A stretch of DNA of 60,974 nt, filler included, from Basidiobolus ranarum (lineage: Eukaryota): NCBI GenBank assembly GCA_040143965.1. It is 10 parts of 10 records of this genome, joined end to end, with 100 filler letters (N's around TTAATTAATTAA, not from the genome) between each part and the next. Parts side by side here need not be neighbours in the genome. Positions count along the whole stretch, not along the records: positions 42,783 to 48,784 come from JASJQH010001441.1; 9 more parts are not named here. The stretch is one strand, 5' to 3'. This document shows, piece after piece, positions 7,018 to 58,378 of the stretch. Below the pieces are notes generated by a model. That model worked only from the letters and a program-made list of their open reading frames with translations. It made no database searches and had not been told where the DNA came from. Both the position numbers and the translations under genes were made by a program. Within the stretch, counting starts at the first letter, position 1, and each line of letters starts with the position of its first letter.

Positions 7018-7388
7018 CTCCATTGGGTAATTGAACTTGCTCTAACCTGATTACAAACCACTATTCTACTCACTATATTAACTCACATACCTCGCTCATC
7101 ACGACTTCAGTTGTTCAGCAATCAACCTCGTTATTTAGAGAAATTTCTACCCGCCCTACTTAAACTTTACCCGCTCTAAATTTTACTGTCAACCAAAAGA
7201 GTGTTTTTATGTTGCAAGTACGGGTGTGGAGGGAGCATACACACAAATTAGGAGATAACGCCAATAATCCACGTGAGCAAATGCTCAATCAATGCGACCA
7301 TAAGTTGAAGCTTTTTAGATATTACACTCATGATGAATATTCCTCGATAATAGCTCCAAAGAATCGTCAAGAAGTCAGTTTTAATGGT

Positions 7389-9077
7389 ATGCTCTCAAAT
7401 TTGATAATGCTCTTCATATTCCTTTCTTTTCCTTATATCGTGGTTGCGCGGCCCGAAGGAACAGTGGAGGTAAACACTAAGACTGTTGGATTAATCTTTG
7501 CAACTGGTAATTCGGAAATGATTGCTATTAGTCAAACTTTATGGACCCTACTGTCGGCTATACTTGGGTGGCTTCTAGGTACAGGACTACTTTTGATATT
7601 CGCGTCTTTGGTGGTGATTATGGCTCATAAGGCAAGGGCAGGACACTATGCTGTAGTAGTAGCTGGCGCTATATCAGCTGCTGGAGTAATTGGTCAGGTC
7701 AGGCTATTGAGAAGTCTACAAGCTAAGGGTGCCGTTATGATAGTGGCATTTTCCTTGGTATTGGTCCCTTATATTGGAGTTATTGGAACATCTCTACTTG
7801 CTTCAAAATCTGGAAAGGCAGTAAAGAAACAAGTACTGGAACCATTCACAAAGCCAGATAAAAAATGGACAGCCGTTGACTGGGTAAAAGCTGACGCTGA
7901 TTTATATACTCTTTCAAACCCTGAAAAGCAGCAATATAACCTGAACCTAGCTGGATATGGCTTGCGTGCAGATACAGATGTGTTAAAGGTGAGTTTAGAA
8001 ACTGAACCAGGAAATGCCGATATATACAGCAAATGTGGATCCTTTTTATTACACTTTCGGAAAGAAGGAAAAGGAATGGCCGACGTAGCGGAAAAGGTGA
8101 ATGGTCAATGGGTGTTGACCACCAATAACCAAACTAATGGACCTTGGGCGGCATCCTTGAACACTTTAAAGTATTGGATTGGAACGGTACGGTTTGAGGA
8201 AATATTACAAACACGAGGTGTCATCAGCCACACTACAGTACCAAATCCAAGTATTGGCAACCCAAAAGTAGCTTTGTTCGGAGCTTTGTTACCCTGGGAG
8301 GACGTCCGAGATATATTGGGATACCGAGTATTGGAGCAATTCCCCCCGGAAAATGATTATTACTATTTGTATGGTAGTATATGCTACCACCACGAGTCAG
8401 TGTTAACGGAGCAACCTAAAGTGATTGAATGGTATAAATTGTACGACAGAACGTCTCTAAAGCTACCCGCATTAATAGATGAAATGGTCGTCAAAAAGAT
8501 GTATGCTGCAGGTCATGTAGGCCAGGCAGTGGGAGTAATGTGGACTCTTAACAATACTGAAGCAGTGTTAGATCTCCAACGTGAGTATGCAAAGAGGTTG
8601 AGTCATAGACTTGTAGCAGGACTTCCAGGTCCGGTTATTTGGAGATTGTCAGAGGCGCCAGTAGTTGTAGTGAGCACAGTTGGTCTCATCATATTGACTG
8701 CATGTGCGGTGACCATTTTTGCACTTGGAATGTCAATTAGGTACTATGCTGGGAAAAAAGCCGAGTGTCGGCCAGTATTGTGTGCTGAGGATATGGCAGC
8801 TCGTGCACTGGCTCCCAACACGATATCTTGTGCAGGAGCGATGTCAAAGCAGAGTGTTCCCACGAGCAAGCGCGGTGATATCCGAATATTACCAGTGAAT
8901 AATTGGCCATTGAAAGTTACAGATAATTTCACTAGTGACAGACAAACAGTAACACTTCTCCATCTAGCTGCCTGGTATGAGGACGTTAGGAGTAGCATTG
9001 AACTTGGAAAAACTGCAGCTAAACAATGTGGCTTTGAAGAATTGGATGATATGAATATTAAGCCAAACAAATACTAA
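7389..9077 (+). CDS. Intronless multi-pass membrane protein of unknown family (~562 aa; ORF is open from 7209)
   Basis: Signal-like MLSNLIMLFIFLSFPYIVVA, about 3 N-terminal TM helices, a ~350-aa soluble region and one C-terminal TM helix. Confidence 0.75.
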   Translation: MLSNLIMLFIFLSFPYIVVARPEGTVEVNTKTVGLIFATGNSEMIAISQTLWTLLSAILGWLLGTGLLLIFASLVVIMAHKARAGHYAVVVAGAISAAGVIGQVRLLRSLQAKGAVMIVAFSLVLVPYIGVIGTSLLASKSGKAVKKQVLEPFTKPDKKWTAVDWVKADADLYTLSNPEKQQYNLNLAGYGLRADTDVLKVSLETEPGNADIYSKCGSFLLHFRKEGKGMADVAEKVNGQWVLTTNNQTNGPWAASLNTLKYWIGTVRFEEILQTRGVISHTTVPNPSIGNPKVALFGALLPWEDVRDILGYRVLEQFPPENDYYYLYGSICYHHESVLTEQPKVIEWYKLYDRTSLKLPALIDEMVVKKMYAAGHVGQAVGVMWTLNNTEAVLDLQREYAKRLSHRLVAGLPGPVIWRLSEAPVVVVSTVGLIILTACAVTIFALGMSIRYYAGKKAECRPVLCAEDMAARALAPNTISCAGAMSKQSVPTSKRGDIRILPVNNWPLKVTDNFTSDRQTVTLLHLAAWYEDVRSSIELGKTAAKQCGFEELDDMNIKPNKY

Positions 9078-25354: not shown

Positions 25355-26053
25355 TAGCTTTTAAACAGTTAGAAGCCTTCTATAAAGAAAACCTATAATA
25401 AACCACTGGTTGTTAATATTCACCTTAACATATTTCTCACAGATGACCACAAGCCTTGCACATACGTTCCTAAACATATTCGGTTTGTTTATTTCTTGAC
25501 AATGTATCAATAGCATAAATAGCCACTTGAAGGCCAATAAGTGGATTAAACAAAGGATATCCGTTAATCTTAGTTCTGACCACTAGTGATTAAAGTGATT
25601 ACTAACCCTTTATCCATCCATCCACCGCACTTTTGATTTTTTGATTCTCTTATATAAGGACTTACCTAACCTTATGTACTAATTTCTCACTAGTGATTTT
25701 TTACGTTAATCTTTGCAACTTTCTCTTAGCTATAATATGTACATTGACGTACTTGTCATAATATTTGCATTTTGTGTATTAGCTAAAACTTGATTCAACT
25801 AAATATTTTCCAGTTTTTTGCTTAATAATCCAAAGATGGCTTTTTTCTCATTGTCCAATGAGCGCTCGTATCATGGTGCCTTTTGGTTCTGCGCTGATTA
25901 GGGTCGTTGGAGCCAAGAGTCACTATTTTGATTTCCCATGCGCTTACAAATCAATGCAAAGAGACAACAGTCACACAAAATGCTTTAGCAAAATATATAA
26001 AGGGAAATTCGTCACATCGGTATGTTGTTTTCTCAGCACTCAGGTATTATCAC

Positions 26054-27007
26054 ATGTCTTCTACTATTCTCATCGTAGGCGCAACCGGCAACACCGGTAA
26101 GAGCGCTGTCCGCAAACTCTCTTCACTGTTGGAATCAAAGAAGAGCAACCACTTCAGCCGAATCCTTGGCCTGACTCGCTCCATGAACAGCCCTGCTTCC
26201 CAAAGCCTCGCCAAGTTACCTTTTGTTGAGATGCAAGAGAAAGACTGGACCACAATTGATGCTAATTGGCTCAAGGAGCAAGGGGTAGTTAGGGTTTACG
26301 TTGCACCGCACAACTTGCCACACCAATTTGTTGATGAATCTAGACTCTACCTTGCTTTATTGGACGCTGGTGTCAAGTACCTTGTAAAGATTTCGACAAA
26401 TGTAGAATTCATTAGCCCTAATAACCCAATCTACTACGGCCGTTCTCACTGGGCAGCTGAAAATCTGTTAAGCCAGCCTGAGTTCAGACACTTGCAATGG
26501 ACTTCTCTCCGGCCACACTATTTCACTCCCCTCTACCTCACTTTTGTACCTGATTGGATTAAGCAGTTTAAGAAAACTGGAGAACAGACAAAGTTTACAA
26601 CATTACTGGCCGCTGATGTTCCTGTCGCATTGATCGACCCAAACGACGTAGGCGAGATTGGGGCCCATCTCCTAGCCCTTGACGACCCCACTCCACACAA
26701 CCAAGCTAAATATGTTCTCAGTGGACCCGAGGATGTGACTGGGAAGCAAGTCTTGGAGACAGTGGAGAAGTTCATTGGCACTAAAGTACAAGATGTCGAG
26801 TACAAGGATACAAGCTTTCTCACTGATCTAGTCGTGAGGGGTCTTTACCCAGAGAAGCATCTGTCATCGCTTTTGGAGGGTTGTAACCCTTTGTGGTTGG
26901 GTAAATGCTCACTTTCTGGTGCACCAACAAGCAAGAAAATAATCGAACTTGCCCCTCCTAAACGCACATTTGTTGACACTTTGAATGATCTAGTGGAAGA
27001 AAAGTAA
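26054..27007 (+). CDS. NmrA-like atypical SDR, NAD(P)-binding
   Basis: MSSTILIVGATGNTG Rossmann motif, WTSLRP, VALIDPNDVG, YVLSGPEDVT; TATATAA ~60 nt upstream. Confidence 0.92.
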   Translation: MSSTILIVGATGNTGKSAVRKLSSLLESKKSNHFSRILGLTRSMNSPASQSLAKLPFVEMQEKDWTTIDANWLKEQGVVRVYVAPHNLPHQFVDESRLYLALLDAGVKYLVKISTNVEFISPNNPIYYGRSHWAAENLLSQPEFRHLQWTSLRPHYFTPLYLTFVPDWIKQFKKTGEQTKFTTLLAADVPVALIDPNDVGEIGAHLLALDDPTPHNQAKYVLSGPEDVTGKQVLETVEKFIGTKVQDVEYKDTSFLTDLVVRGLYPEKHLSSLLEGCNPLWLGKCSLSGAPTSKKIIELAPPKRTFVDTLNDLVEEK

Positions 27008-33309: not shown

Positions 33310-33819
33310 CTAATTTGTCCGCTTACCAAAAGTGTTCTCTACAGTAGGTATGGTTGCCATCCAAGGAACGCACCCGTTATTTCTTTGCGTATTAATGTAT
33401 GTCTCACATGAAAAGTCCTTAGCGCGTCCAAGCTTTCTTTCTGCAAATACCGTAGCATTCTGATAAATGGTAACACAATCCACTGGCAATTCAACGTTGG
33501 CAATAGGACAGAACCCACGCATACATAACCGAAACTGGTTCTCACATGTATACTTACTAGCTCCACAAGTCGCGTAGCAAATATCTTTCAGATCACAACA
33601 GGGTGCATAGGCACCGTTTGATTCCTTTCGAATTGACTCGCATCCAATATTGCTGAGCCAGCCTCCAGAAGGTAATGCCGACGGACATGAGATAGGTTGT
33701 GCTCCAGGTGCCCACAAAACATCAACGTTCCGTAGCAAGTATTCATCACCGACTACGAGACTGCCATAAAGTGAGCAAATAAAAAGGAATCCCTGACTAA
33801 GGAGATGATTGGCTTTCAT
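33310..33819 (-). CDS. Secreted group XII phospholipase A2-like protein
   Basis: Signal peptide; NIGC and CCDLKDICYATCGASKYTCENQFRLCMRGFC cysteine pattern. Confidence 0.8.
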   Translation of the reverse strand: MKANHLLSQGFLFICSLYGSLVVGDEYLLRNVDVLWAPGAQPISCPSALPSGGWLSNIGCESIRKESNGAYAPCCDLKDICYATCGASKYTCENQFRLCMRGFCPIANVELPVDCVTIYQNATVFAERKLGRAKDFSCETYINTQRNNGCVPWMATIPTVENTFGKRTN

Positions 33820-35374
33820 CTTGATGGAGCTAAAACGTGATGCAACTGCAATCAATAATAAGTTTTGCTAACAAGATATTAGGTGGCGACGAAAAATCTA
33901 GGAACTAAAAGCACTCGACCGCTTTTGTTCAACTTTCAAATTCTACCCAGTTTTATTATCAAGGGGAATTTCAAGTTGGGCTCACTGTTAAACACGTCAC
34001 ATGGAATGTCTGAGAGCTCTAACGTACTGAAACGAATCTACCAACAGACCCTGTAACGTAGATGTTTGTTTTGATGCATGCTACATTGCCAGTTTGGAGT
34101 TCGAAACACGCACCGCACAAGATCCCCAATATTCTGGTATGTCCTTATCCACAGGGCTGTTCTGATCGTTTTGACTAATCCAATCGACAATATACCAGAA
34201 TTTAGTAATGGCCCTTAAAAATATTAGCCTGGACAGGGTCAGTTAGGGTCCTGGAAATCACATCTCGTGAAATAACAGTGCACTGTTTGTCGTTGTTTCT
34301 AGATGTTAAATTAAGCGCCTGCATCATACCCGAAGTCTGGGGAGTCTCTAGCCCCGTACATGTGCCATCATTGGTCGCTACGAAATGGGACTCAAGAAAA
34401 CTTTGAGTGTATGGTTATTTTACACCGTTACTTGCGATAAATATCCTTACAAAACACAATGCAATAACCAATCTCAGTGGAATCAGGAGGCCCTGGTTTC
34501 TAGGCTCAAATCGATTTCCATCGGTTTGGATGGTAATTGGTTTTACAAGTTCCTTAAACCGCTCGTATATGGTTTGCTACACCCAATTCAATCACAATAT
34601 TGTGACAAATGCAAATGAACCATTGAGACCAATATGCCCTGGAGATAGTCTCTCATGTCCACCTTAATTACCCTCTCGTACATCATTTAGGCCGTCTCAG
34701 GAACCTCAAGCTAATGTCACTAAACATTTTCATCAATAATCGGCCTGCGAACAACCCAAATAAATTACTCCAATAGAATATATCTATTTTCCAAAAACAA
34801 ACCGCACAATGTGAGATAATTTTGCTATTGAAATTAGAGAACACCCTATGTTCGTAAATTTAGTTCTTTCTGCTCACCAACCGTATGGACCTCTATTTAA
34901 TGTTAATCGATATGATCATAATTTCTTGACAATAAACCATTTTCGATGAGGGTTGTGGATGATTTCCATACATGCCTCCTTTGTATCTCGATTAGCGGCA
35001 TGCTCTATTGGATATTCCTAGCATTAAGGATGTACTTTCCAATCGTCCCAAATACCGTTGTGGCTAATTTAGGTAGAATGCAACCGCATGGAAATCTTCA
35101 GATTATGAATATTGTCATTTAAGATGTTACTCCTCTCTAGGTTAAAGGAGAGATGTTCAATATAAAACCAAGGATGTTCATACGAATTTTCTCATAACCT
35201 CTTTGCATCAACGTGTTTATCTATCCTTCACACATAAACGCTTCAACAAGAAATCCACGTCGAAACCTTGTAATCTATTTACGGATATCTTAGGTCACTA
35301 CCAAAATACCAACAAAAGGATAGTCATTCTAGATTCGATCTTCGTCAAGCCTCGTAATACAAAAGCTTTTAAAA

Positions 35375-36579
35375 ATGATTTTTACTGCTAAATTGAAGAT
35401 CTCCGCTTTATTATTAATTTTGCCATTTGGAATATGGTCGCAATCCTGCGGGAAGGTAGCACAACGTCGAGAAGTGCGCTCATTAAGTGTAACCGAGTTG
35501 CAGGCTTTTATCAAAGCAGTTCAAGACCTCCATACAGGTCCTGCTCCAACCAAATATGATGAACTCGCCAACATACATGCAACATATTTTAGTGAAGCTC
35601 ATAACAATGCAGCTTTCTTTCCGTGGCATCGTAAGTTTATCAAAGATTTCGAATTGGCTTTGCAAAAGCAAAACCCTAATGTTCAACTACCTTATTGGGT
35701 GAGTACAGAATTTTCTCTTCAAAACCCTTCAGTATCAGAGTTTCTAACTTTTCTCTTCAACAATTAGGATTGGAGTTTGGATTCACAATCGCCCGCAGAG
35801 AGTGGGATATTTTCCTCAGACTTTTTCGGTGGTAATGGCGACTCCAGCAATAATTATTGTCTAACGGATGGTCCGTTTGCGGGTTGGACCATGAACTATC
35901 CTGACGTTCATTGTCTCAAACGACAATTTGATGGAACTGACCCTAATACAATTGAGCCATTTTACTCCCCAGAGGCCTTAAAATACGTTACCAGTAGATC
36001 TAAGAGTTACGCCACTTTACACCGGAATATTGAATCGCCACCTCACGGGGTAGTTCACGTTGGAATTGGTGGCGATCAAGGAGATATGGCCTTTGCTACC
36101 AGCACTAATGAGTAGGTTTTATATATTTAATTATCCAGAAAAAAGATGTAAACCAACGATATGATTTTCAATTATAGTCCCTTATTCTGGCTACATCATG
36201 CGTTCATAGATAAAATTTGGGCTGATTGGCAACGCTCAAATCCTACTAAATCCAGTGACTATGGTGGGAATGGGCCTAGAAATACCAAAGCGGCTCTTGG
36301 CGATATCATGATCCCCTTTAATATCACTGTAAAGTCCATGTTAGACACTACCAAAGCAGGCCTTTGTTACCAGTATGCTCCGTCACCATCTACAAATATC
36401 GTATCACCCTTACGCAAGCGTTCGGGGAATAATAGTACAACCACCATACCTCCAAGTGACCAGAAAGAAAGCGCTACTGACTATTGGTACAAACTCCAGT
36501 TACCTAAGCCATTACCTGAAGCCTATATTCACATGATGGGTATGAGTGTTCCGCAGGGTAGATCAATCGAGAAGGATTG
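35375..36579 (+). CDS. Secreted tyrosinase (di-copper), 3'-truncated; introns 35699-35767 and 36112-36177
   Basis: Signal peptide, RREVRSL, CuA H...AHNNAAFFPWHR, LPYW|DWSLD, CuB PHGVVH...DPLFWLHHAFID. Confidence 0.95.
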
Positions 36580-36709
36580 NNNNNNNNNNNNNNNNNNNNN
36601 NNNNNNNNNNNNNNNNNNNNNNNTTAATTAATTAANNNNNNNNNNNNNNNNNNNNNNNNNNNNNNNNNNNNNNNNNNNNAAATGGAACTAAAACTAATTA
36701 CCTTCATGC

Positions 36710-42682: not shown

Positions 42683-44568
42683 NNNNNNNNNNNNNNNNNN
42701 NNNNNNNNNNNNNNNNNNNNNNNNNNTTAATTAATTAANNNNNNNNNNNNNNNNNNNNNNNNNNNNNNNNNNNNNNNNNNNNGATATGATCCAGTATTGT
42801 CACAATATCTTAAAAGATTGATGTCTTGATTGTCACTTTGTTTAGATTAGTATTTAAGCTAAATAAAGTCCACACCATCTGGTGCTTTTCATCCTCCCTA
42901 ACCCTTACCAGAACATCTATACCCTTTGTCAGCATCTTGACTTTATCTTTGAATATTATATTCTAACTTGGCTTATTTATTTATTGACTTTGTTTAAATT
43001 GATAAATAAATATTACACCTTCTGGTACTTATCATCCCCTAACCCTAATGTAGAACCCAAAGATACCGGATTCCTGGCTCTAGAAGTAGTTGATTCTGAA
43101 AGAAATGACTAAATTTAGGAAACAGATATATACACGGTTGGATGTAACAATGTATCAGATGGATCTGAAACATTTCATCGCATTCGTTTGTGGAGCGTTA
43201 ATTTTCAGATTACCAAGCTATAATTAGTAAATGGATCATACTGAGCGTTAAAGTCTAGTGTTCCAATTGAGGTTTTTAACACTCAACTAGTGTTTACAGG
43301 ATAGGATCATTTTTAAAGTCAATTGAAGTGGTAAAATAGTGAAATCTCGGTTAGGAAATTTTACATATATCTGATTGTCAACTGGCATTCATACTGTCGG
43401 CCAAGTTATCCGTAGATTGAATGGTGAAAGTAGTGAAACTTGGCAATATTACAAATATCGCTGAGAGATATTCAGATTTTCTTTTAGTAAAGCAGTTTAG
43501 TAGAAGCTGTTAGTATACTGCGTGTATATAGTTTAATTGGTTCTTTAGTAGTTATTTAGTTTAAGTACACTACTAGGATACAAGCGTATTAGCATTCGCA
43601 GTTATCGCCAACCTTTCGGTGGTATTGTGGATGACAACCTGGCCACAAATTACTTCGCTACTCAGAAAGTCGGATATAGTAGCTCTGATGTAAGAGTATC
43701 AATGTACCATCTGGACTCCAGCTCAGAGACTAATCGTCTCTTTCTAAACTAAGATTGATATCTATCTATTCCCCTGCATTCAATGGGATGATCCTAAGCT
43801 TACCTGCAAAAGTCCGAAAACACAGGTTATGGAGCTACGGTAACATATCGAAAGACAAGGCTTCGGATTTCACTTATTTTAGCTTGGTGAGTATACTAGT
43901 ATACTTGTCCACAATACTCAACTTACTAATCAAAACATCCTTAGACTTGGAATGAGGAAGCCTTCGACATAATCAGTCTACCATTTTGCTTGTTCCTCAA
44001 TCTTAACTTGCTATTACAGTCATTTCTAGAAACTACATCAGGGCTTAAAAACTATGATATGAATAAGTACATAGCAGTCCTTCGCAAGCTCTATACCCAC
44101 TCAAAGACTTTGACCTCGTATTTGGGATATATGCTCAAAGAAGTAGCTTGGAGGAATTTTTTGGTAAATAAAAAAATCGGATGAGAATTTACCGCTACGG
44201 GACGTAGTAAGACACACTTGATATGTCATATCCTGGTTAGTTATTAACATCGCTAATCCTTTACAAGAACTGGGATTAGGATAATAGTTCTATGGTGTTC
44301 CATTCTCAACACTATGGTGGGTGGAAAAATGTGGCAATAAAGGTAGAGCCATAGTTAGAGTTCTATCCCGATAGAAGCTATTAACACCTGGTCTAGCAAT
44401 TTTAGGGAACAAGTCTGTCACTGGATGCGATGGTAATTGAGATCACAATGTTCTTGCCTAATGGTATTTAGCCTTTGGCTTGTTTTATTTTTTGACACAA
44501 GGGTTAGTTATCTTATTTTCTGTCTAAGTCAGAAGGTCATCCCCAGATTTCTCTATGGCATCTTATCA

Positions 44569-47013
44569 TCAAATTAATTTCGGATTGGGCTCACTTTGAA
44601 AGCGAAGCACTTCACCATCCTCAAACATGGCGACAATGGAATGTGGCTCAACACATATTTGATAAGTACAATCCCATGTTTCATCTTCGCCATAACTATA
44701 TGTCTCTTCACCAAAATTTGCAACTAACTTGGTTCCATCTTGGAATGTGGTGGCTTGCACCATGCGATCGTTTGACAACCATTCAAAGTCTATCAAAGGC
44801 TGAAAAGCCAACCTTTCATGTAACGGTCTGAAAAAAGCATCAATACGGAGTAGATACGGTAATCTTACCTCAGCGGTGGCCAAATTTAGATGCACCAATG
44901 GAGGAGCGTTGTATAACATTTGTAGTAACTCAGAATCTGACTGAATATCTGGAAACTTTAAGTTGTCGATCAACCAATGATTTGTGGTGACGATGCTATC
45001 ATGGAATACAGCTTGAAACAAAGGTAACCGCTTAGATGGAGCATAATATAGTTGTCTGTATCTAGACTCTACTAAAGCTGGCTTGAAGTATGTTGCAGGT
45101 TGACTTTCTGGGTAATATCCACCCAGAAAATACGGAGAACTCTTGTTCTTGTGCATTTGTGGGTCACGCCATCCAAACATAGTATTCTGCATACCATGAG
45201 CAAACGGTATCTCTCTGTTTACATGGGAAAAGCCATTCTCTGAGCCTGCTAAAAGCTTTAGTTGCGATTCTGTCGCTACCCATTCCATACGTAGATTCCG
45301 ATCGTGCGCATCCTGAGCCTCTGAACTAGTATGGGCAGGGTCAAAGTCTTCATGGACCATTCCGGACGCATCGGCATCCAGGAACCAGCTATTATAAGCA
45401 TTACGTGTATGCATTTGAGTTTCTTTCACACGTTTGTGATATACTTCACTTACACAGGGTGTATTGGTATAGACACCTTCGCCTTTAAAGCCCTCTAGTC
45501 TTTCTCCGTTTTGTAGCATTACTCCACACTCTTCAAATACTTCTTGACCAAGATGAGCGGTAATAAACGATGGATCAACTCCATCTGGGATCGCAGTATT
45601 ATAAGAATCATAAGGGCCGATCAAATAGCCAGCATTGTTTGCAGCCTGAATGCCCTCAGGATGATAAAAGCCAGCTCGATAGTCGGGGATTCCCAAGAAA
45701 AGCTTCTTTAAACCGGACTCTTGAAGGCGATTCATCATTTTTACAGAAGCTCCATCGCCCCAGCGTTCTACTGGAATAACGGCATGTTGAAATAACTTCA
45801 TTAGCGCAAATTTCTGTCGATCTTCCGCGTAATGCGTGAACTTGGTCTTCGGAAGGTCCTGATCAGTTATATCAATCTGAGTAATAGCTGTGTTGATTTC
45901 GTTGATAATGATGGATTGGGTATACCGGTTTGTCAGCAAATCCTTGGACAATAATGCCTGTTGGGCTTGGCTACTGAACTTCTCTCTCAAAGAGTCCGCC
46001 AAGGAATGAGTTTTGTTCCCGCTATTTTTCAAAATCTCTATGAATGTCTTCCAATTTCTTACATCTTGAGGAACCATCAATTGATCTCCCCAAAGATATG
46101 CATGACTTGCACCTATTAATCTATGTCCTGTTTTGTGCCAATCGATACGATCTAGTTTTTCTCGTAGGCTCTTGAATTGGCCCCGAGACTTTATAAGGTG
46201 ACGATAGCGTTTAGAGGGAGCCAGTGGATCTAACTTATTTGGCGTTAAATGGAAGATTAATTCGTATGATTGTTTGTAATCGAACTTAGAGAATTTGTGA
46301 TGAGCAGTAATCAACAAATTCTCATCTACACGGGCGTTGTTGTCCATATTTTTTGATTTGCCTCCATTTGGTGTACTGAATTCTGATGAGTTGTCGAATG
46401 GACTCGAAAAGATCACACTCAATGTATTCTTACCTCTGCCACATTCTTCACTTCTTTCGCATAGATATTCTATTCCAAGTAAAGGTAAACTCATTCCTTC
46501 AGGCATGGAGATTGGACCACTCGTGAGTTGATTGCGCCATCCTTGGTCATTTAGGGGTATATACATTCCCTCAATCTTAGGAAACATCAGCGCCCTTGCC
46601 CCTTCGTTTTGATTCAAGGGCAATAAAGGCCATTCTATAGCGCCAGGAGTGTTTCTAGAGAACCGAACTCGAAAATCGTGACCTGACAAGGATGTTTTAA
46701 CAGATATCTGAGAATTATCTAAGCGCCATTTAGCATGTTCCCATTCAACTGATAAATCCTTGACATCCTCGGTAGAATTTGAGATGGGAAGGGACAGAGT
46801 GATAACTTGTCTATGCTTGCCAGTAGTTTCTGCCTGCATCGCAAGAGTAGCTGGATCAATTGTAATATGCCAATGAGAATTGAAAAGCTTAAACCTCTCC
46901 GAGCTGTCACCCTCATTAGAAAATGACCATGCGGCGACAACAGAAAGACTAGGTACGGCTACAAGCAGAAGATGAAAGAGACCAAACCTGGAGGATATAC
47001 TAGAAGGCATCAT
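44569..47013 (-). CDS. Secreted bacterial-type glycoside hydrolase, GH129/GH101-related (~814 aa, intronless)
   Basis: Signal peptide; LIGASHAYLWG, GYLIGPYDSY, SWFLDAD, GSENG, RLPLFQAVFHDSIVTTNHW, LYNAPPLVHL, VQATTFQDGTKLVANF. Confidence 0.8.
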   Translation of the reverse strand: MMPSSISSRFGLFHLLLVAVPSLSVVAAWSFSNEGDSSERFKLFNSHWHITIDPATLAMQAETTGKHRQVITLSLPISNSTEDVKDLSVEWEHAKWRLDNSQISVKTSLSGHDFRVRFSRNTPGAIEWPLLPLNQNEGARALMFPKIEGMYIPLNDQGWRNQLTSGPISMPEGMSLPLLGIEYLCERSEECGRGKNTLSVIFSSPFDNSSEFSTPNGGKSKNMDNNARVDENLLITAHHKFSKFDYKQSYELIFHLTPNKLDPLAPSKRYRHLIKSRGQFKSLREKLDRIDWHKTGHRLIGASHAYLWGDQLMVPQDVRNWKTFIEILKNSGNKTHSLADSLREKFSSQAQQALLSKDLLTNRYTQSIIINEINTAITQIDITDQDLPKTKFTHYAEDRQKFALMKLFQHAVIPVERWGDGASVKMMNRLQESGLKKLFLGIPDYRAGFYHPEGIQAANNAGYLIGPYDSYNTAIPDGVDPSFITAHLGQEVFEECGVMLQNGERLEGFKGEGVYTNTPCVSEVYHKRVKETQMHTRNAYNSWFLDADASGMVHEDFDPAHTSSEAQDAHDRNLRMEWVATESQLKLLAGSENGFSHVNREIPFAHGMQNTMFGWRDPQMHKNKSSPYFLGGYYPESQPATYFKPALVESRYRQLYYAPSKRLPLFQAVFHDSIVTTNHWLIDNLKFPDIQSDSELLQMLYNAPPLVHLNLATAEVRLPYLLRIDAFFRPLHERLAFQPLIDFEWLSNDRMVQATTFQDGTKLVANFGEETYSYGEDETWDCTYQICVEPHSIVAMFEDGEVLRFQSEPNPKLI

Positions 47014-48483
47014 CTTTGGTATAGTCGAGAAATGTTGAATCTTAATCCAAGCTTCGTCTCGCCTTTTATCTGCCTTTAGCCTGAACTTTGTTTTCACTAC
47101 TTGGTCTGTAATGGTTCACTGATATGAGAATATTTATTCAATTTGTAAATGAATCTATTTATAGACTATATACTATCAATAAACTCCGAAACTGCCCTTA
47201 TTTCACTATCGCTTTGAGTTTCCAATACTATGAGAAGCGTCCGCATACCTGTTTGGATCTGAGTGTAGCTATTTAGTGATAGCTGAGTGAACCGACTTGA
47301 TGGTATTTCATGCTCGCCATCCATTACCAAATAAGAAACTTCCATTGAGCGTAATTTGCAAGGTAATCTCACCGGTATAGGTGGCTCATAGTATTAAAAG
47401 CGGGATGTTTAGTATGGGTATTTATAGTCAAAGGAAATATCTTTCCGCATCAAACTATTGATATCCCATAGTAAGTCACATGATTCGAGTTATTTTTAGA
47501 AAGTTCGAGAATAGTAATTCTACCAGCGCCAATGCCTTAGAAAATTCCCATTTAAAGGGTACATTCATAAAGTCTAGGCTATTTACATGTTTTGATATGT
47601 ATTTGAAAATTCATTGGACTTAAAGATACTAACCAACAATTGCTATGGGCAATACTGAGGAAAAGTTCCATGTAGAAAATGCTAATAAAATGCTAGTAGC
47701 CATACTATCTTGGTGAATTCATAAATGCAACGATGATATTCCAGTATAGGTAGATAAACTCATAGATATTAAATAACTACTGAAGATGAAAGTAATTGAC
47801 TGTATACGTGCTAAAGAGAACGTCAACTAAAGTATATAACCCTCAATTACACGCCTAATATGTCCAGGATGATCAACACTTGGTTGGGCTTATTTCAAAG
47901 TGAGCTATAAAAGCATCCAACCTGTATCCCGTATTCCCAAACACTTTAAGAAAACATCCCATATGCTATTACTCACAGCCTGAACTCAAGCTCCTACATC
48001 TCTAATGAATTCATAGAAGATCGTATCCGATTCTTACTATTCAGTTAGATTTCCATAAAACAATTATCTTAGTAATGTTAATAAACAACAAATTGTTAAG
48101 TTACATACGCTTCCCTAGGATTGGCGTCGTAGTCTTGGGTAAAAATGATAATTATTACTCCGGAGCCTTAGGGAAGATTTTAAATAGTAAAAATTGGTCA
48201 ACTCAAACCGGTCTTCACCACGAAAAGCAACACAAGTTAGCTATAGTAGTCTAAAAATAGCGAGTATAACAGAACTGTACGATTGTTGCTGACACCCGCA
48301 ATAGTATGAGATGAGTTGTGGTAAACCAGATATTGCAGTTAATTACAAAATTAAACGACTTAAGTAAAGCTAATCGGAAATTATGCAATTGTTAGAATGG
48401 ATTTATTGAATAGTTTATACAGTGCATGAATGATGTCCAAGTGGTGCAATGATTATTATGAATAATGATATGAGAATTAAACT

Positions 48484-48784
48484 TTAGCATTCAATATTAT
48501 CATATTTTCTGAACAAGAAATAGAATATTCCCGTCATAACTCCCATCAATCCAGTTTGGATTCCAAATACGTATACGAAGTTTGGGTCATTACTCCAAAT
48601 AGCCAGGATGAGTCCGATCAAACTTCCACCACAATTGGTGAACAAGAACAAAGCAGTAACCACGGATTTAAGCTCAGGTGCGGCTTGTCTGAATGCAAAC
48701 TCAAGTCCAGTAACCGAAGCGAAAATCTCCGAAATGGAGATGCCAACGAATGGAATGATTTGCCACCAGATGGAAATGTCATTG
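48484..48784 (-). CDS. C-terminal 99 aa of a POT/PTR2 peptide transporter (absent from the ORF track)
   Basis: NDISIWWQIIPFVGISISEIFASVTGLEFAFRQAAPELKSVVTALFLFT...DPNF...FRKYDNIEC*. Confidence 0.92.
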
Positions 48785-50325: not shown

Positions 50326-50730
50326 TCAAGTAACCCAGTTACCTTTGCATTTCGCTGTTTCTCCTTTACCAGGCCAATTCTTCTTTGAAAACTTGGGATC
50401 AAATCGACGAGGAAGACCCTGCCGGTTGAATTTAACAGGCCATATCTTATTTCCCTTTTTCTCCAGCACTTTTAGCACTTCCAAAATCTTCGCTGATTCT
50501 GTATCTAGCCCGTAACAGCATGTATTTCGAGGGCATGTTGCAACTGTCTTAGCCAAATAGATAGTATCACCGTGGTAACATATTGCATTCAGGCCATTTC
50601 TTTGGAAAATCAGTCCTGGGTAATTTTCAGGAGTGAAAGGATTTTTCTGTGGACTATCAGAAGTGGTTTTTGCACTAGTCATGAGTGAAATACTGAGTGA
50701 AGTAATGAGGGGAATGAAGAAACGAATCAT
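50326..50730 (-). CDS. Small secreted protein, YPGL/CYHG family copy A2 (134 aa)
   Basis: Signal peptide; NPFTPENYPGLI, ICYHGD, IWPVK, WPGKGETAKC. Confidence 0.85.
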   Translation of the reverse strand: MIRFFIPLITSLSISLMTSAKTTSDSPQKNPFTPENYPGLIFQRNGLNAICYHGDTIYLAKTVATCPRNTCCYGLDTESAKILEVLKVLEKKGNKIWPVKFNRQGLPRRFDPKFSKKNWPGKGETAKCKGNWVT

Positions 50731-51781
50731 TATTACTGACAACTCTAGGTGACTCTCAGCTATGGTTGATACGCTTTTATGTTGATTTGCCTAACCCTCT
50801 ATTTTGTTTCATCTCTTTCATTTTGATCTCTCAGCTGTGAAAATGAAACGAAGCATCATATGAGAAATAGTTTTGTCTGGATCTATATGAGAATGGATCA
50901 AATCTATTTCTACGAGCAGCAGTAGTGGTATAATAAAATTTGTACCAACGAATACCACGTTTTAGATTTTCAGTAGATGTGACAAATTTCAGTTTTTTGG
51001 CTATTATGGCTATTGATTTACCTCACAGTGTAAGATAAAGTTAGTTGTATCTCAAAGATAATGGTAAATTTGTAATGAACGTACTATTATATTTCTTATG
51101 GTCAACAATTAATATTCTTAGATAGTAACTCTTCCACCAATTTATTTTTTACAAATGTATATAATTCATATCGAAGACATACCTGAGCGCATGGTGTAAG
51201 TTCTATTTCAGCCATAACGACGAGATCTCAAACATTCTTGCGTGTGGTACTAATGATAATTCATTACAATATCGGTAATACTGACCGGGCGTCTGTGACA
51301 ATGAATGAGAGAAATTCTAGAAATGAGGTTTAGTTGTGTTGATTTTTGGACGGAAATCAAATCCATGGAAATAGCCCAAGTAAAGGTCAGTCATGATACA
51401 CATATATGTGTTCATACATTAATCCATTAATCTTTCGTACGTTCGTCTGGGATCGCTCAGTGAGTGGGTTCGAATACCTCATTGATCACAATGATATTGT
51501 CCTTTGAGTGCTGTTGCGAAAGAGGTGGACAGAATACGTGAAGTGAAACAGTCCTCTTCGAACCTGAATAGATAATTTCTATACCTAAGTCGAGTGTTGT
51601 TATATTGCTGAAGTTTAAAAAAATCGTAGTTTTCTAAACCAACGGTGAAGTATGTAGCTTAGATTAATTATCACCATTCTTTATGACTACCAATGCTAGT
51701 GTATCCGTGAATGTAAATTTGGTATCTTTAATAAATACCAATGTTTCAGGATAAAACGATTAAAATTATTCATGCTTTAAG

Positions 51782-53912: not shown

Positions 53913-54344
53913 TTAGTCATCTTCGCATGTAGCTGTTTCTCCTTTTCCGAGCCAATCTTTTAATCCTGTGGATTGTGGATCGATTCGATGAGGAAAGCCA
54001 CTTTTTTCCGTCTTGGCAGGCCATACCTCATTCCCGTGGCTCTTGAGCTCTTTGAGTAAGGCCTGAATCTTCTTGAAATCCTTTTCTATCTCAAAGCAGC
54101 CTATATCTGTTGGGCATCCTGGATTTTTCTTAGCCAGTAAAGCAGTCTCACCATGATAACAAATTACATCATGGCCATTCTTGGTGATAATCAGCCCTGG
54201 GTAGTTTTTGGGAGTGAAGGGATTCTTATGTGGGTGACCAGATCGCGATTTCGGGTGAGAACTCCAAGACTTTGCGCTAACTAGTAGCGAAAGTGTAAGT
54301 AGTGTGAGTAGTGTGAGAAATAAGATGAAGGGTGGCCTTATCAT
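53913..54344 (-). CDS. Small secreted protein, YPGL/CYHG family copy A4 (143 aa)
   Basis: Signal peptide; NPFTPKNYPGLI, ICYHGE, CPTDIGC, VWPAK, WLGKGETATC. Confidence 0.85.
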   Translation of the reverse strand: MIRPPFILFLTLLTLLTLSLLVSAKSWSSHPKSRSGHPHKNPFTPKNYPGLIITKNGHDVICYHGETALLAKKNPGCPTDIGCFEIEKDFKKIQALLKELKSHGNEVWPAKTEKSGFPHRIDPQSTGLKDWLGKGETATCEDD

Positions 54345-54672: not shown

Positions 54673-55018
54673 TTTCTGGCACATTTATGAATCGCCACAC
54701 TCCAATATAGCTCTGTTTATAAGATTTCTCAAAAATGATTAGTGTAGAATCCCTTTCAGAAGCAAAAGTTACTGGTCAAGTACTTGACTTAGATCGTCCT
54801 TGTGCATAAAGCTCAGGCGATCCATTAACGTCTTGTGGATGGATTCATGTATTGATATATACTTTTTCTGATGACAATATGNNNNNNNNNNNNNNNNNNN
54901 NNNNNNNNNNNNNNNNNNNNNNNNNTTAATTAATTAANNNNNNNNNNNNNNNNNNNNNNNNNNNNNNNNNNNNNNNNNNNNATGTAGATTGTGTTAAATA
55001 AGGTCCCAGTAACATACA

Positions 55019-56400
55019 TTGCATGCCATTGGAATGGAAAAAATCCAAGTCAATTTAAATGGTGCCTCCAAAGAGAAAGTGTATACTTTTGAGGCTGTAC
55101 TACATGTTCCAGATATTGCCAAGAATATAATATCTGTATGCAAGGCCACCTCAGAAGGGCTAAAATTTAATTTTGATAAGCCAGGATGCACCATCACTGT
55201 TGAAAATGGGAGTTATTTAGCTTTGGGAGAAAAGGATCATAACTTATACAAACTTACATATAATCCAAGAGGTTTATGTGTAAATACTAGTTATTCCAGT
55301 CAACAAACTACTCAATTATGGTATAAGAGATTTGGCCATATTGGATTTGTTTATTGGAGCAAAATGATCAATAATTCCCTAATTTCAGGAATTCAAAATA
55401 ACCCCTCAACCAAAATGGAAATTTGTGAGGGTTATATATATGGAAAACCAGCCAGGCAAGCATTCAAGAGCTATGGTTTAATCAAATCTGTCAAAAAATT
55501 GGATCTAATTCATTCAGATTTGTGTGGACCTATGCAAAATTTATCTCTGGGCTGAAAAAGATATTTAATCACATTTATTGATGATTAAACAAAATACACT
55601 TGGGTCTACTTTATGGAAAAAAGTAGAAGCTCTCTCTATCTTCAGAGATTTTAAAACACTGGTGGAGACTGAAACTGGAACTAAAATCAAGAAAATGCAT
55701 ACTGATTATGGTGGAGAATATACTTCAACACTATATAAGTACTTTTGCAAGGTTCATAAAATTAGGCAAGAAACCACTGACCCCTATTCACCTCAACAAA
55801 ATGGAGTTACTGAGAGAGCTAACAGGTCTATAATAGAAATGGAAAGATCTATATTAAATGCACAAAATGTATCTCATAACTTTTGGGTAGAATCTGTTGC
55901 TACAGCTGTATATCTGAAGAATAGAAGCTTTACTAGAAGTCTGTCTAACTCTAAACCATAGCCAAAATTTCAAAGATAATCAAATCATGGGATGTTTGGT
56001 TTAATGAAAATAAAACATTTTCACCCAAGATGATCTCAGATGATGACAAAAATCAATTTTCTCCTGATCCAATCATTCAAATTGGTTCAAGCTAAATCAA
56101 TGAAGAAAATAGCATTCTTGTGGACCCTTTGACTATAATTCTGCCTATTGAAGTACCCAACACAATGGTAGAAGTTGTAGTATCTTTGTCCCAAACCAAG
56201 ATATCAAATCAGATCAGAAATAGCCCTGATTCCTATATCAACAAGTCCCAAAATTGGGCCTATGCCTGCACAGCTCAAATAAATGAGCCACAGACTCTAA
56301 AAGAGGCCCTGAATGGCCCTCACACAAAATTTTGGAGATCTGCAATGGCTGATGAGTACCAGGCTTTGATTGATAATCAACTTTAGATTTTAACCAACTT
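55019..56400 (+). mobile_element. Degenerate copia pol: pre-integrase, integrase and start of RT
   Basis: LDLIHSDLCGPM, TDYGGEY, PQQNGVTERANRSIIE, EPQTLKEAL; stops and frameshifts. Confidence 0.92.
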
Positions 56401-56423
56401 ACCCCTAACAGAAATATGAGGAT

Positions 56424-57170
56424 TGTTATTGTACAAAAACCATCACAATTTTAATCCATTTATGATTGACCATTTACTTGCCATCATCAAATTCTCAAGT
56501 TAGATTTGATTTCAATCAATTATTACAGTTTCAGGAGTGAAATTTCTTGATCTTGCAAAATAGTTGCACATTATTGGCTACAATTGCAGAGAACTATAGA
56601 TCAACACATGTGCAAAAAACATAACTCAAATTTTACACATTTACCATGTCAATGCTAATTTGTCACCTTTGAAAACCCTAGTTTCTTTAATATATTCTCC
56701 TGAATATTTTCATAGAGTTCTTCATACCCAAGGTTTAGCTCATATCCAACACAAGTTTGTATCAATATCTCCTTCAACACCCACCATTGTATTAACATTG
56801 TTGAATCTACTTTCTTCCAGCTATCTGGCAGATACCCTGCAATATTGTGCCACTCTTTATTAAGTTCTTTCCAGATATCTGCACAGTCAACACCAGACTG
56901 AATGTCAAGTTGAATGTTCTTCTTCTGAAGCCACTTTCTGCATACTTGCACTGCTTTTTTTGCTTCATACATTTGAGAATACTCCTCAAGCACTTTTACT
57001 ATTTTATACATCCTTGTAGTGTGGCACTACTGAGGGTGCTTTGTGGTGTTTGTGCAGCTTTTTGCTTGCCTTTAAGTTTTGGGCTAATTTCAACACTTTG
57101 AAAAGTACCAATTGAGGTTAGAGAGCCATGAGTTTTATTTGCTGGTGTTTTGGCTTGTTGAAAGGTGCCA
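56424..57170 (-). mobile_element. LTR-like repeat, family 3, second copy, truncating a copia protease
   Basis: TG...ACA ends on the minus strand with an internal TATAAAA; abuts WYTDSEA. Confidence 0.7.
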
Positions 57171-58378
57171 GGTGCTTCAGAATCAGTATACCATGTCTGA
57201 GAATCCTTGTTGGTAGTCATAGATAGAGAAGATATAAACAGGTGGTCTTCTTTTGTACCACATTTCCAGAATCAGTACATCTTTCTTCTTTAGCAATTCT
57301 TTTAATGCAATCTTTGCTAAATGGCCAGTTCTTTTACAGTAATCACAGAATGTGTTACTTTTCTTCTTAAAGTGCTTTCAACCTTTATAGGAAGGTTTCC
57401 CATAGCCTATAAAAGCATTTTCTTTGTTCTTTTGGTTGGATCCTGATTGGCTTAGATCTTCATCCAGAAGTCTGCCAAATACATAATTGAAGGTCAAATT
57501 TTTGGTTTGTGATTCTAGAGCCATTACTAAGCACTGAAACTCATGTGGCAGGCTATTCAGGACTGTAACTATGCTATCTTGATCAGTGGTAGGTACTCCA
57601 ATGCATTCCATTTCATCCACTAAAATAGTGACACTATCAATTAGTGGTTTAATGTCTTCTCCTAGCTTCATCTTTAGGTAAAAGAATTGTCTTCTTAGAA
57701 ACATCTTGTTGGCAGAAGAACTTATTTGGTAGGTGTCTTCCAAGGCTTTCCACACCTTCTTGGCAGTTTTAGTTCTTGAACATTGAATTAGCAATTTGTC
57801 TTTAACATTAAGACAGATTTTATTACAGGCACTTTGTTTGTTTTTAACCTGGAGTAAACTTTGGTTTCAGATAGTTTTGCATTGTCTTCATCTCTTACAA
57901 CAGTGTACCAAAGTCCTTTTTCTTGCAGCAGCATTTTCATTTTAATTCTCCACACTTCATAATTGGTTCCATCCAATTTTTCAGAAGAGAGAAAAGTTCC
58001 ATAAATTTGAGAAGTAGACATTGCAGAGAGTGCAAGCTCAGGGCCCATACCCTGTTGGTAGTGGTTTGGAGAATTAGAGGAATTGGTGGTTTTAACTTGT
58101 CAATTTATTGAGTAGAAAGTTGACATATATAGTCTTGTCAAGTTGTAAACAAACTGACATATAGAATGTGTTAAAGAAGGTCCCAGAAACATGTGTGCAA
58201 AGTTTGGGGCTTCTAGTGCAAGTTTGAAAAATCTCTATCTCTGAGAACTTCTAAGTTGGCAAAAATATTCAAAGTAAATTCCAATTGAGAATAATGGATG
58301 ATATCGTATTGAATTTTAAGATAACTAGTACTAAGCTATATATGACTCTATGGATGTTTGGCAATGCTAATTTCAACA
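57171..58378 (-). mobile_element. Copia 5' end: LTR (58053-58378), PBS (58039-58052) and decayed gag-protease
   Basis: TGTTG...CCAACA, then GGGTATGGGCCCTG; EKLDGTNYEVWRIKM, VLNSLP, CDYCKRTGHLAKIA zinc-knuckle remnant, WYTDS. Confidence 0.93.

What the first reader, a model, noticed from the sequence alone, without database searches (positions are those of the whole stretch)
44569..48784. Bacterial-type GH129-like hydrolase, apparently domesticated in a fungus
Seen: an 814-aa intronless ORF with a signal peptide and intact candidate catalytic residues (WFLD and GSE, 46 aa apart), lying ~1.5 kb downstream of a fungal-type PTR2 3' end on the same contig. Known: GH129/GH101-related enzymes are essentially bacterial, and characterised members include alpha-N-acetylgalactosaminidases acting on mucin-type glycans. 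Inference: horizontal acquisition giving a secreted host-glycan-degrading activity. Linkage to PTR2 argues against simple contamination.
Basis: partly seen in the sequence, partly recalled or inferred. Interest (0 to 1): 0.7.

Follow-up and report, generated by a model that had tools for sequence, protein, structure and literature searches.

The report
Bacterial sugar-cutting enzyme gene in Basidiobolus
A gut-dwelling fungus carries an intact gene, taken from bacteria, for what looks like a secreted sugar-cutting enzyme; the transfer is already listed in a published table for a sister species, and the sugar it cuts is probably not bound the way the known mucin-cutting relative binds it.

Summary
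Confirmed: an intronless 814-aa ORF (44569-47013, minus) with a hydrophobic N-terminus and a full PF11308 domain lies 1.47 kb downstream of a fungal PTR2 3' end on one 6,002-base contig. Only Basidiobolus has named eukaryotic hits. The fungal pair nests inside a Pseudomonadota clade (AU test p=0.0002). GC3 matches the host, and three further copies, mostly broken, sit elsewhere in the genome. So the transfer is real and old. It is not new: the B. meristosporus orthologue ORX98789.1 is listed as a Proteobacteria-derived xenolog in the supplement of PMC11291939. The mucin reading is weak. D546 and E592 align with catalytic acids of the two solved GH129 enzymes, but none of NagBb's four metal-site residues is kept, the protein has a ~110-aa insert, and the bacterial relatives examined sit in no sugar-use cluster. 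Best reading: a secreted retaining alpha-glycosidase of an uncharacterised subfamily, probably for a galacto-type sugar. No structure could be predicted. The scan's notes held nothing on this gene, only other bacterial-origin genes in this genome. Interest 0.38.

The parts
44569..47013 (-). Intronless 814-aa PF11308 (GH129/GH101-related) glycoside hydrolase gene of bacterial origin
46930..47013 (-). Probable signal peptide, residues 1-28 (cleavage site inferred by eye)
   Evidence: hydrophobicity peak at residues 10-28; orthologue called SP by TargetP in PMC11291939 supplement
45754..46089 (-). Insert of about 110 residues (309-420), present in the proteobacterial-type subfamily, absent from Streptomyces-type homologues; the solved GH129s have only a short loop here
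44746..45729 (-). PF11308 catalytic barrel region, residues 429-756
45607..45612 (-). Y468-D469, near-invariant pair (141 and 142 of 142 rows), candidate sugar-binding residues
45376..45378 (-). D546, candidate nucleophile; aligns with NagBb Asp435
   Evidence: (141 of 142 rows)
45238..45240 (-). E592, candidate acid/base; aligns with NagBb Glu478 and DagB Glu517
   Evidence: (140 of 142 rows)
48484..48783 (-). 3' end of a fungal PTR2 (POT family) peptide transporter gene, cut by the contig end; shows the host context
42783..43039 (.). High-copy repeat at the contig's left end, downstream of the gene
   Evidence: summed contig depth 88,017 and 9,522 against 16 over the gene; no second copy in the window

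Best explanation
A Pseudomonadota gene for an exported glycoside hydrolase entered the Basidiobolus line before B. ranarum and B. meristosporus split, took on host codon usage and was kept under selection. In this genome it was duplicated, and the window's copy is the only complete open one found. The protein is most likely secreted and works as a retaining alpha-glycosidase by double displacement, with D546 as nucleophile and E592 as acid/base, without NagBb's calcium site. Its substrate is most likely an alpha-linked galacto-type sugar (Gal, GalN or GalNAc) in an extracellular glycan the fungus meets in gut contents, insects or litter. Shown: gene, context, origin, conservation. Inferred: secretion (about 0.8), retaining mechanism and residue roles (about 0.85), galacto-type substrate (about 0.55). 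Within that, vertebrate mucin Tn antigen is one option among several (about 0.25 overall).
For: Origin: of 47 near-length hits and 3 shorter hits, the only ones named as eukaryotes are Basidiobolus (many hits are unnamed). The fungal rows form one clade (SH-aLRT 100) inside a clade with Duganella, Solimicrobium, Iodobacter, Aeromonas, Herbaspirillum and Stenotrophomonas (99-100). Holding the 17 bacterial ingroup rows together without the fungi is rejected, p-AU 0.00024. PMC11291939 supplement row 561 lists the orthologue: 403 proteins in the cluster, 1 fungal, donor Proteobacteria, SP, 0 introns. Domestication: GC3 0.38 against 0.33-0.49 for 9 window genes and 0.55-0.83 for 10 bacterial homologues; dN/dS 0.07-0.16 against three own-genome copies. 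75 of 77 columns conserved in at least 80% of 140 non-fungal rows are kept. A second copy lies on a contig with a BAR-PH-ArfGAP-ankyrin gene. Mechanism: a profile of the family hits only the two solved GH129 enzymes with significance. D546 aligns with NagBb Asp435; E592 aligns with NagBb Glu478 and, in a weak stretch, with DagB Glu517, whose mutant is inactive (PMC5698469 section 7). Both solved relatives cleave alpha-linked galacto-type sugars.
Against: No structure could be predicted, so the active-site mapping rests on sequence profiles at very low identity; H366-to-Y468 was placed by eye against the HMM's own alignment. The roles nucleophile and acid/base for NagBb Asp435/Glu478 are recalled; the primary papers were not held. 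WoLF PSORT called the orthologue 'golg', not extracellular. The public model of this same gene (P0003, 502 aa) starts at M223, lacks the signal peptide and assumes an intron after residue 718. dN/dS was measured against copies that are partly broken, with dS above 1. Most of the extra copies decayed, so dosage is not favoured. No bacterial neighbour points to a substrate. Two solved relatives are a thin base for 'galacto-type'.
Confidence: 0.6

Rival explanations
1. It is an alpha-N-acetylgalactosaminidase that strips GalNAc from host or insect mucin-type glycans, using a binding site rebuilt without calcium.
For: Same family model as NagBb; catalytic acids aligned, and H606 aligns with NagBb His492 rather than DagB Glu531; F509 (F or Y in 141 of 142 rows) lies within one or two columns of NagBb's stacking Trp398; Basidiobolus lives in amphibian and reptile guts (PMC10964425 passages).
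Against: 0 of 4 NagBb metal-site positions kept (H271 to Y306, H320 to G441, D322 to P443, H366 to Y468), though calcium supports GalNAc recognition in NagBb (PMC8106489). No Asp where NagBb has Asp330. DagB scores higher than NagBb. No sugar transporter or GalNAc catabolic operon recurs among 101 bacterial neighbours scanned.
Confidence: 0.25
2. It cuts a microbial polymer (bacterial exopolysaccharide or surface glycan, or a fungal wall galactosamine or galactan polymer), helping the fungus feed on or compete with microbes; the insert and the conserved aromatic loop form a longer cleft.
For: Bacterial relatives are lone exported genes without uptake genes. They carry a ~110-aa insert, and the family has a conserved loop with W615, G631, Y/W633, P635. 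In the family of G001, 4 of 5 carriers also have GH18 against 43 of 196 non-carriers (Fisher p 0.011, kinship not corrected). Earlier unchecked scan notes report other bacterial-origin wall hydrolases in this genome (a lead only).
Against: In Pseudomonas the GH18 link is absent: 1 of 42 carriers against 4 of 109. No structure supports an open cleft. Both solved relatives are exo-acting.
Confidence: 0.3
3. The gene is a relic or is not secreted: the whole small family is decaying and this copy is merely the last to break, or it is expressed as the shorter public model.
For: Four of the five other contigs with pieces carry stops or frameshifts, and the fifth has V at the conserved G590; the public model is truncated.
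Against: 2,442 bases open; 75 of 77 conserved columns kept; intact orthologue at 63% identity in a second species; 3 of 4 coding differences in run X1 are silent.
Confidence: 0.1
4. Bacterial contamination or a chimeric contig.
For: Short contig, fragmented assembly (13,754 contigs); only 43 bases of PTR2 are bridged by the X1 contig.
Against: Orthologue on a 169-kb scaffold with 32 genes in another species; host-like GC3; diverged paralogues, one beside an ArfGAP gene; nearest bacterial proteins only 41-47% identical.
Confidence: 0.02

Closest known systems
Basidiobolus meristosporus ORX98789.1 (K493DRAFT_299730), listed as a xenolog in PMC11291939 Supplementary Table, cluster 475
   Same: 63% identity over 98% of the length; intronless; N-terminal signal; same catalytic acids and same active-site substitutions; sister in every tree.
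   Different: One copy found there, against one intact plus three further, mostly broken copies here. The main text of that paper does not mention it (0 hits for GH129, hydro_129, PF11308). Its function is untested in what I could read.
Uncharacterised exported PF11308 proteins of Pseudomonadota (Solimicrobium silvestre PRC93649.1, Duganella violaceipulchra, Iodobacter, Aeromonas, Stenotrophomonas, Pseudomonas, Serratia)
   Same: 35-47% identity, full length, same insert and motifs.
   Different: Bacterial GC3; the fungal proteins have a longer N-terminus and extra Cys-bearing loops (C185/C191, C782/C787). No NCBIfam model matches, and I found no paper on their activity.
NagBb, GH129 alpha-N-acetylgalactosaminidase of Bifidobacterium bifidum (PDB 5WZN)
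   Same: Profile match E 9e-20 across N-terminal, barrel and C-terminal parts; Asp435 = D546, Glu478 = E592.
   Different: Metal-site residues and Asp330 not kept; ~110-aa insert added; single-sequence E only 0.005.
DagB (ZGAL_3152), GH129-like alpha-1,3-(3,6-anhydro)-D-galactosidase of Zobellia galactanivorans (PDB 5OPQ, 8RZG)
   Same: Best structural relative by profile, E 5e-30; Glu517 = E592; exported.
   Different: Glu531 is H606 here; DagB sits in a carrageenan cluster, whereas the bacterial relatives of this gene sit in none; red-algal carrageenan is an unlikely substrate for this fungus (inference).

Membership tests
Pfam PF11308 Glyco_hydro_129 | Score above the gathering cut-off over the whole model | tested here: met
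   392.9 bits against 25.6, positions 1-324 of 324
GH129-type (NagBb/DagB) hydrolases | Catalytic Asp at NagBb 435 / DagB 486 | tested here: met
   D546 aligned with NagBb Asp435; 141 of 142 rows; the 435 = 486 equivalence is from PMC5698469
GH129-type (NagBb/DagB) hydrolases | Catalytic Glu at NagBb 478 / DagB 517 | tested here: met
   E592 aligned with both; the DagB stretch is weak on its own; the acid/base role of Glu478 is recalled
GH129-type (NagBb/DagB) hydrolases | Beta-sandwich, TIM barrel and C-terminal beta domain fold | not testable with these tools
GH129-type (NagBb/DagB) hydrolases | Hydrolysis of alpha-glycosides with retention | not testable with these tools
   Needs enzyme assay and NMR; retention is recalled for this family
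NagBb-type alpha-N-acetylgalactosaminidase | Active-site metal ligands His271, His320, Asp322, His366 | tested here: not met
   Positions read from the four Ala changes between 5WZN and 5WZQ (that these are the metal ligands is inferred from this and recalled); here Y306, G441, P443, Y468 (the last by eye)
NagBb-type alpha-N-acetylgalactosaminidase | Asp330 (third essential acid; role recalled) | tested here: not met
   Region 445-453 has no conserved Asp at that place; alignment gapped
NagBb-type alpha-N-acetylgalactosaminidase | Stacking Trp398 | tested here: inconclusive
   F509 lies one or two columns away in two alignments
DagB-type 3,6-anhydro-D-galactosidase | Glu531 and placement in a carrageenan cluster | tested here: not met
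   H606 at Glu531 (Glu in 23 of 142 rows); no carrageenan genes among neighbours scanned
Bacterium-to-Basidiobolus xenologs | Nested among bacteria with support, on a contig with fungal genes, absent from other fungi searched | tested here: met
   PMC11291939 supplement
CAZy GH129 (curated list) | Inclusion by CAZy curators or dbCAN model | not testable with these tools
   No CAZy or dbCAN library here

The most novel reading that the evidence does not exclude
The proteobacterial PF11308 subfamily with the 110-residue insert is a separate glycosidase group with an undescribed specificity, possibly a microbial or arthropod amino-sugar polymer. Basidiobolus is the only eukaryote found to have taken it, and secretes it to digest microbes or prey remains in the amphibian gut. 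One assay on the fungal enzyme would give a function to more than a thousand unannotated bacterial proteins (1,383 members in one Atlas cluster).
Probability: 0.45. Interest if true: 0.62.

Novelty: new member of a known kind. Interest (0 to 1): 0.38.

Why it matters
Transfers from bacteria are common in Basidiobolus (2-5% of genes, PMC7466969), and this one is already in a table, so the transfer alone would not surprise a specialist. The value lies in the enzyme: a widespread, untested branch of the GH129-like hydrolases whose catalytic acids are kept but whose sugar site differs from both solved members. The full-length gene here also corrects a truncated public model and gives a single intact target in a fungus whose gut lifestyle and occasional infections of animals and people (recalled) are poorly understood.

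Tried and rejected
Structure prediction and fold search: not available, so there is no model. ESM Atlas held no structure; its feature search returned only PF11308 and DUF5696 clusters. Expression: no RNA holder listed, which says nothing either way. Bacterial neighbourhoods: 80 loci clustered; of 151 neighbours picked from 23 loci, 101 were scanned with Pfam. They are housekeeping or unrelated genes that change by genus, with a few single sugar-related neighbours (GH18 in L084, KduI/IolB in L062, TRAP transporter in L074, MFS in L031 and L064); no substrate follows. Chitinase co-occurrence: positive in one family sample, nil in Pseudomonas; inconclusive. NCBIfam: 0 of 4 proteins matched. The DUF2854 hit (E 0.0055, below cut-off) was ignored. 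The first locus scan with the single protein found nothing. Synteny with B. meristosporus could not be checked; no tool here gave its contig. Donor: the sister row P0004 has no name, so no genus is named. Literature: searches gave no paper on the activity of this subfamily or on a fungal GH129 beyond the table row; the library lacks most subscription journals, and Table S5 of PMC7466969 (figshare) was not seen and may also list the gene. The earlier-findings look-ups by sequence and by words returned nothing.
Full report
Observation. The ORF is as described: 44569-47013 on the minus strand, 814 residues, no stop, with PF11308 over residues 429-756 at E 1.3e-117. D546 (WFLD) and E592 (GSE) are 46 apart. 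The most hydrophobic stretch is residues 10-28. The window is a string of ten contigs of about 6 kb joined by N spacers; gene and PTR2 end share contig G000:C1441, window 42783-48784. The PTR2 piece is fungal: best hits are Basidiobolus at 91% and 90%, followed by Piptocephalis, Coemansia, Neoconidiobolus and Mortierellaceae. One contig of run X1 covers 43809-48526 at even depth; X1 may be the source sample.

Organism and relatives. The named hit P0003, identical over 496 residues and on a 6,002-base contig, is labelled Basidiobolus ranarum; it is a truncated model that starts at M223 and assumes an intron after residue 718. The next hit is B. meristosporus ORX98789.1 at 63%. An HMMER search of 1.84 billion representatives found 831 proteins at E 0.001 or better, of which 150 were listed.

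Origin. In a 52-row tree the two fungal proteins are sisters (SH-aLRT 100), with the unnamed P0004 next (97), inside a 14-row clade (100) that holds Duganella, Solimicrobium and Pseudomonas typographi. A 43-row tree with named genomes gives the same picture and adds Iodobacter, Aeromonas, Herbaspirillum and Stenotrophomonas. Both were quick searches without bootstrap, on rows I chose from the best hits. An AU test on 26 rows rejects a bacterial ingroup without the fungi (p 0.00024); the group was named after I had seen the first trees. The donor is thus a Pseudomonadota lineage; no genus can be named. The bacterial tree itself does not follow taxonomy, and the gene is patchy: 5 of 201 genomes in the family of G001, 42 of 151 Pseudomonas.

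Domestication. GC3 is 0.38, within the 0.33-0.49 of nine window genes and below the 0.55-0.83 of ten bacterial homologues. Five other contigs hold pieces. Both the N-terminal and the C-terminal regions are covered three more times, so there are three further copies, or two plus an allele. C7730 has one in-frame stop and lies beside a BAR-PH-ArfGAP-ankyrin gene; C10927, C12168 and C4570 have stops and frameshifts; C9373 is open but cut by its contig and has V at conserved G590. The own copies group apart from B. meristosporus with weak support (89). dN/dS against three of them is 0.155, 0.066 and 0.146, with dS of 1.3-2.2. The window protein keeps 75 of 77 columns conserved among 140 non-fungal rows.

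What is in print. PMC11291939 (passages; supplement rows) lists ORX98789.1 among its well-supported xenologs: Glyco_hydro_129, donor Proteobacteria, one fungal protein in a cluster of 403, signal peptide, no introns, 169-kb scaffold. Its main text does not mention it. PMC7466969 (passages) puts bacterial-origin genes at 2-5% in three Basidiobolus genomes, mostly intronless and host-like in codon use, with 23 O-glycosyl hydrolases; its Table S5 was not seen. PMC10964425 and bioRxiv 2025.03.31.646025 (passages) do not discuss glycosidases of this kind.

Mechanism. A profile of 142 homologues hits DagB (E 5e-30) and NagBb (9e-20) and nothing else of significance in the PDB. D546 aligns with NagBb Asp435 and E592 with Glu478 and DagB Glu517. 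PMC5698469 (passages and section 7) reports that DagB Asp486 and Glu517 mutants are inactive and that Asp486 equals NagBb Asp435. The nucleophile and acid/base labels and the retaining mechanism are recalled; the NagBb papers were not held. A second profile, of 31 mostly insert-free homologues, aligned NagBb 158-492 in one piece. There 5WZQ differs from 5WZN by Ala at His271, His320, Asp322 and His366, which I take to be the metal ligands. Through the profile comparison these map to Y306, G441 and P443, and by eye to Y468. The review PMC8106489 (passages) says calcium and Trp398 support GalNAc recognition. So the catalytic core is kept and the NagBb sugar site is not. The family instead conserves Y306, Y468, D469, F509, D548, H606, W615, W680 and K686 and carries an insert at 309-420. 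Failing the NagBb test lowers 'it is an alpha-GalNAcase of that type'; it does not lower 'it works like a GH129 retaining alpha-glycosidase'.

Substrate. Bacterial neighbourhoods give no help: in the 23 loci examined by Pfam the gene stands among unrelated genes. Co-occurrence with GH18 chitinases was positive in one sample (4 of 5 against 43 of 196) and nil in another (1 of 42 against 4 of 109). I therefore commit only to an alpha-linked galacto-type sugar (about 0.55), because both solved relatives cut such sugars. Mucin Tn antigen (0.25) and a microbial polymer (0.3) are the main specific options, and they overlap with that class.

Verdict. New member of a known kind; interest 0.38.

Noticed in passing
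window, whole: The window is ten separate ~6-kb contigs joined by N44-TTAATTAATTAA-N44 spacers; neighbours across a spacer are not linked.
   Followed up: yes
window 50326-50742 (-) and 53913-54344 (-): Two related small secreted-looking proteins (138 and 143 aa) sharing a KNPFTP-NYPGL motif and Cys pairs, with no Pfam match.
   Followed up: partly
window 42783-43039: Very high-copy repeat (summed depth up to 88,017 in X1) with short CCCTAA-type runs at its loose ends; a mobile or subtelomeric element is possible.
   Followed up: partly
window 7164-9077 (+): 637-aa open frame with several hydrophobic segments and no Pfam match.
   Followed up: partly
window 25898-27007 (+): Intronless NmrA-like gene with the highest GC3 of the genes measured (0.49); origin not checked.
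   Followed up: no
window 33310-33867 (-) and 35333-36631 (+): Group XII secretory phospholipase A2-like gene, and a tyrosinase gene split over three frames, probably by introns.
   Followed up: no
window 55013-58099: Broken copia-type retrotransposon pieces, recognised by eye from integrase- and gag-like frames; not scanned.
   Followed up: no
L009:1439-2128 and L007:95-751: Two of the paralogue contigs share about 700 bases (75% identity) downstream of the hydrolase that seem to encode a small secreted protein on the reverse frame, so the duplicated unit was larger than the gene.
   Followed up: no
L089 and L084: A bacterial homologue lies on a Pantoea plasmid; another lies directly behind a GH18 chitinase gene in Janthinobacterium sp. 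CG3.
   Followed up: partly
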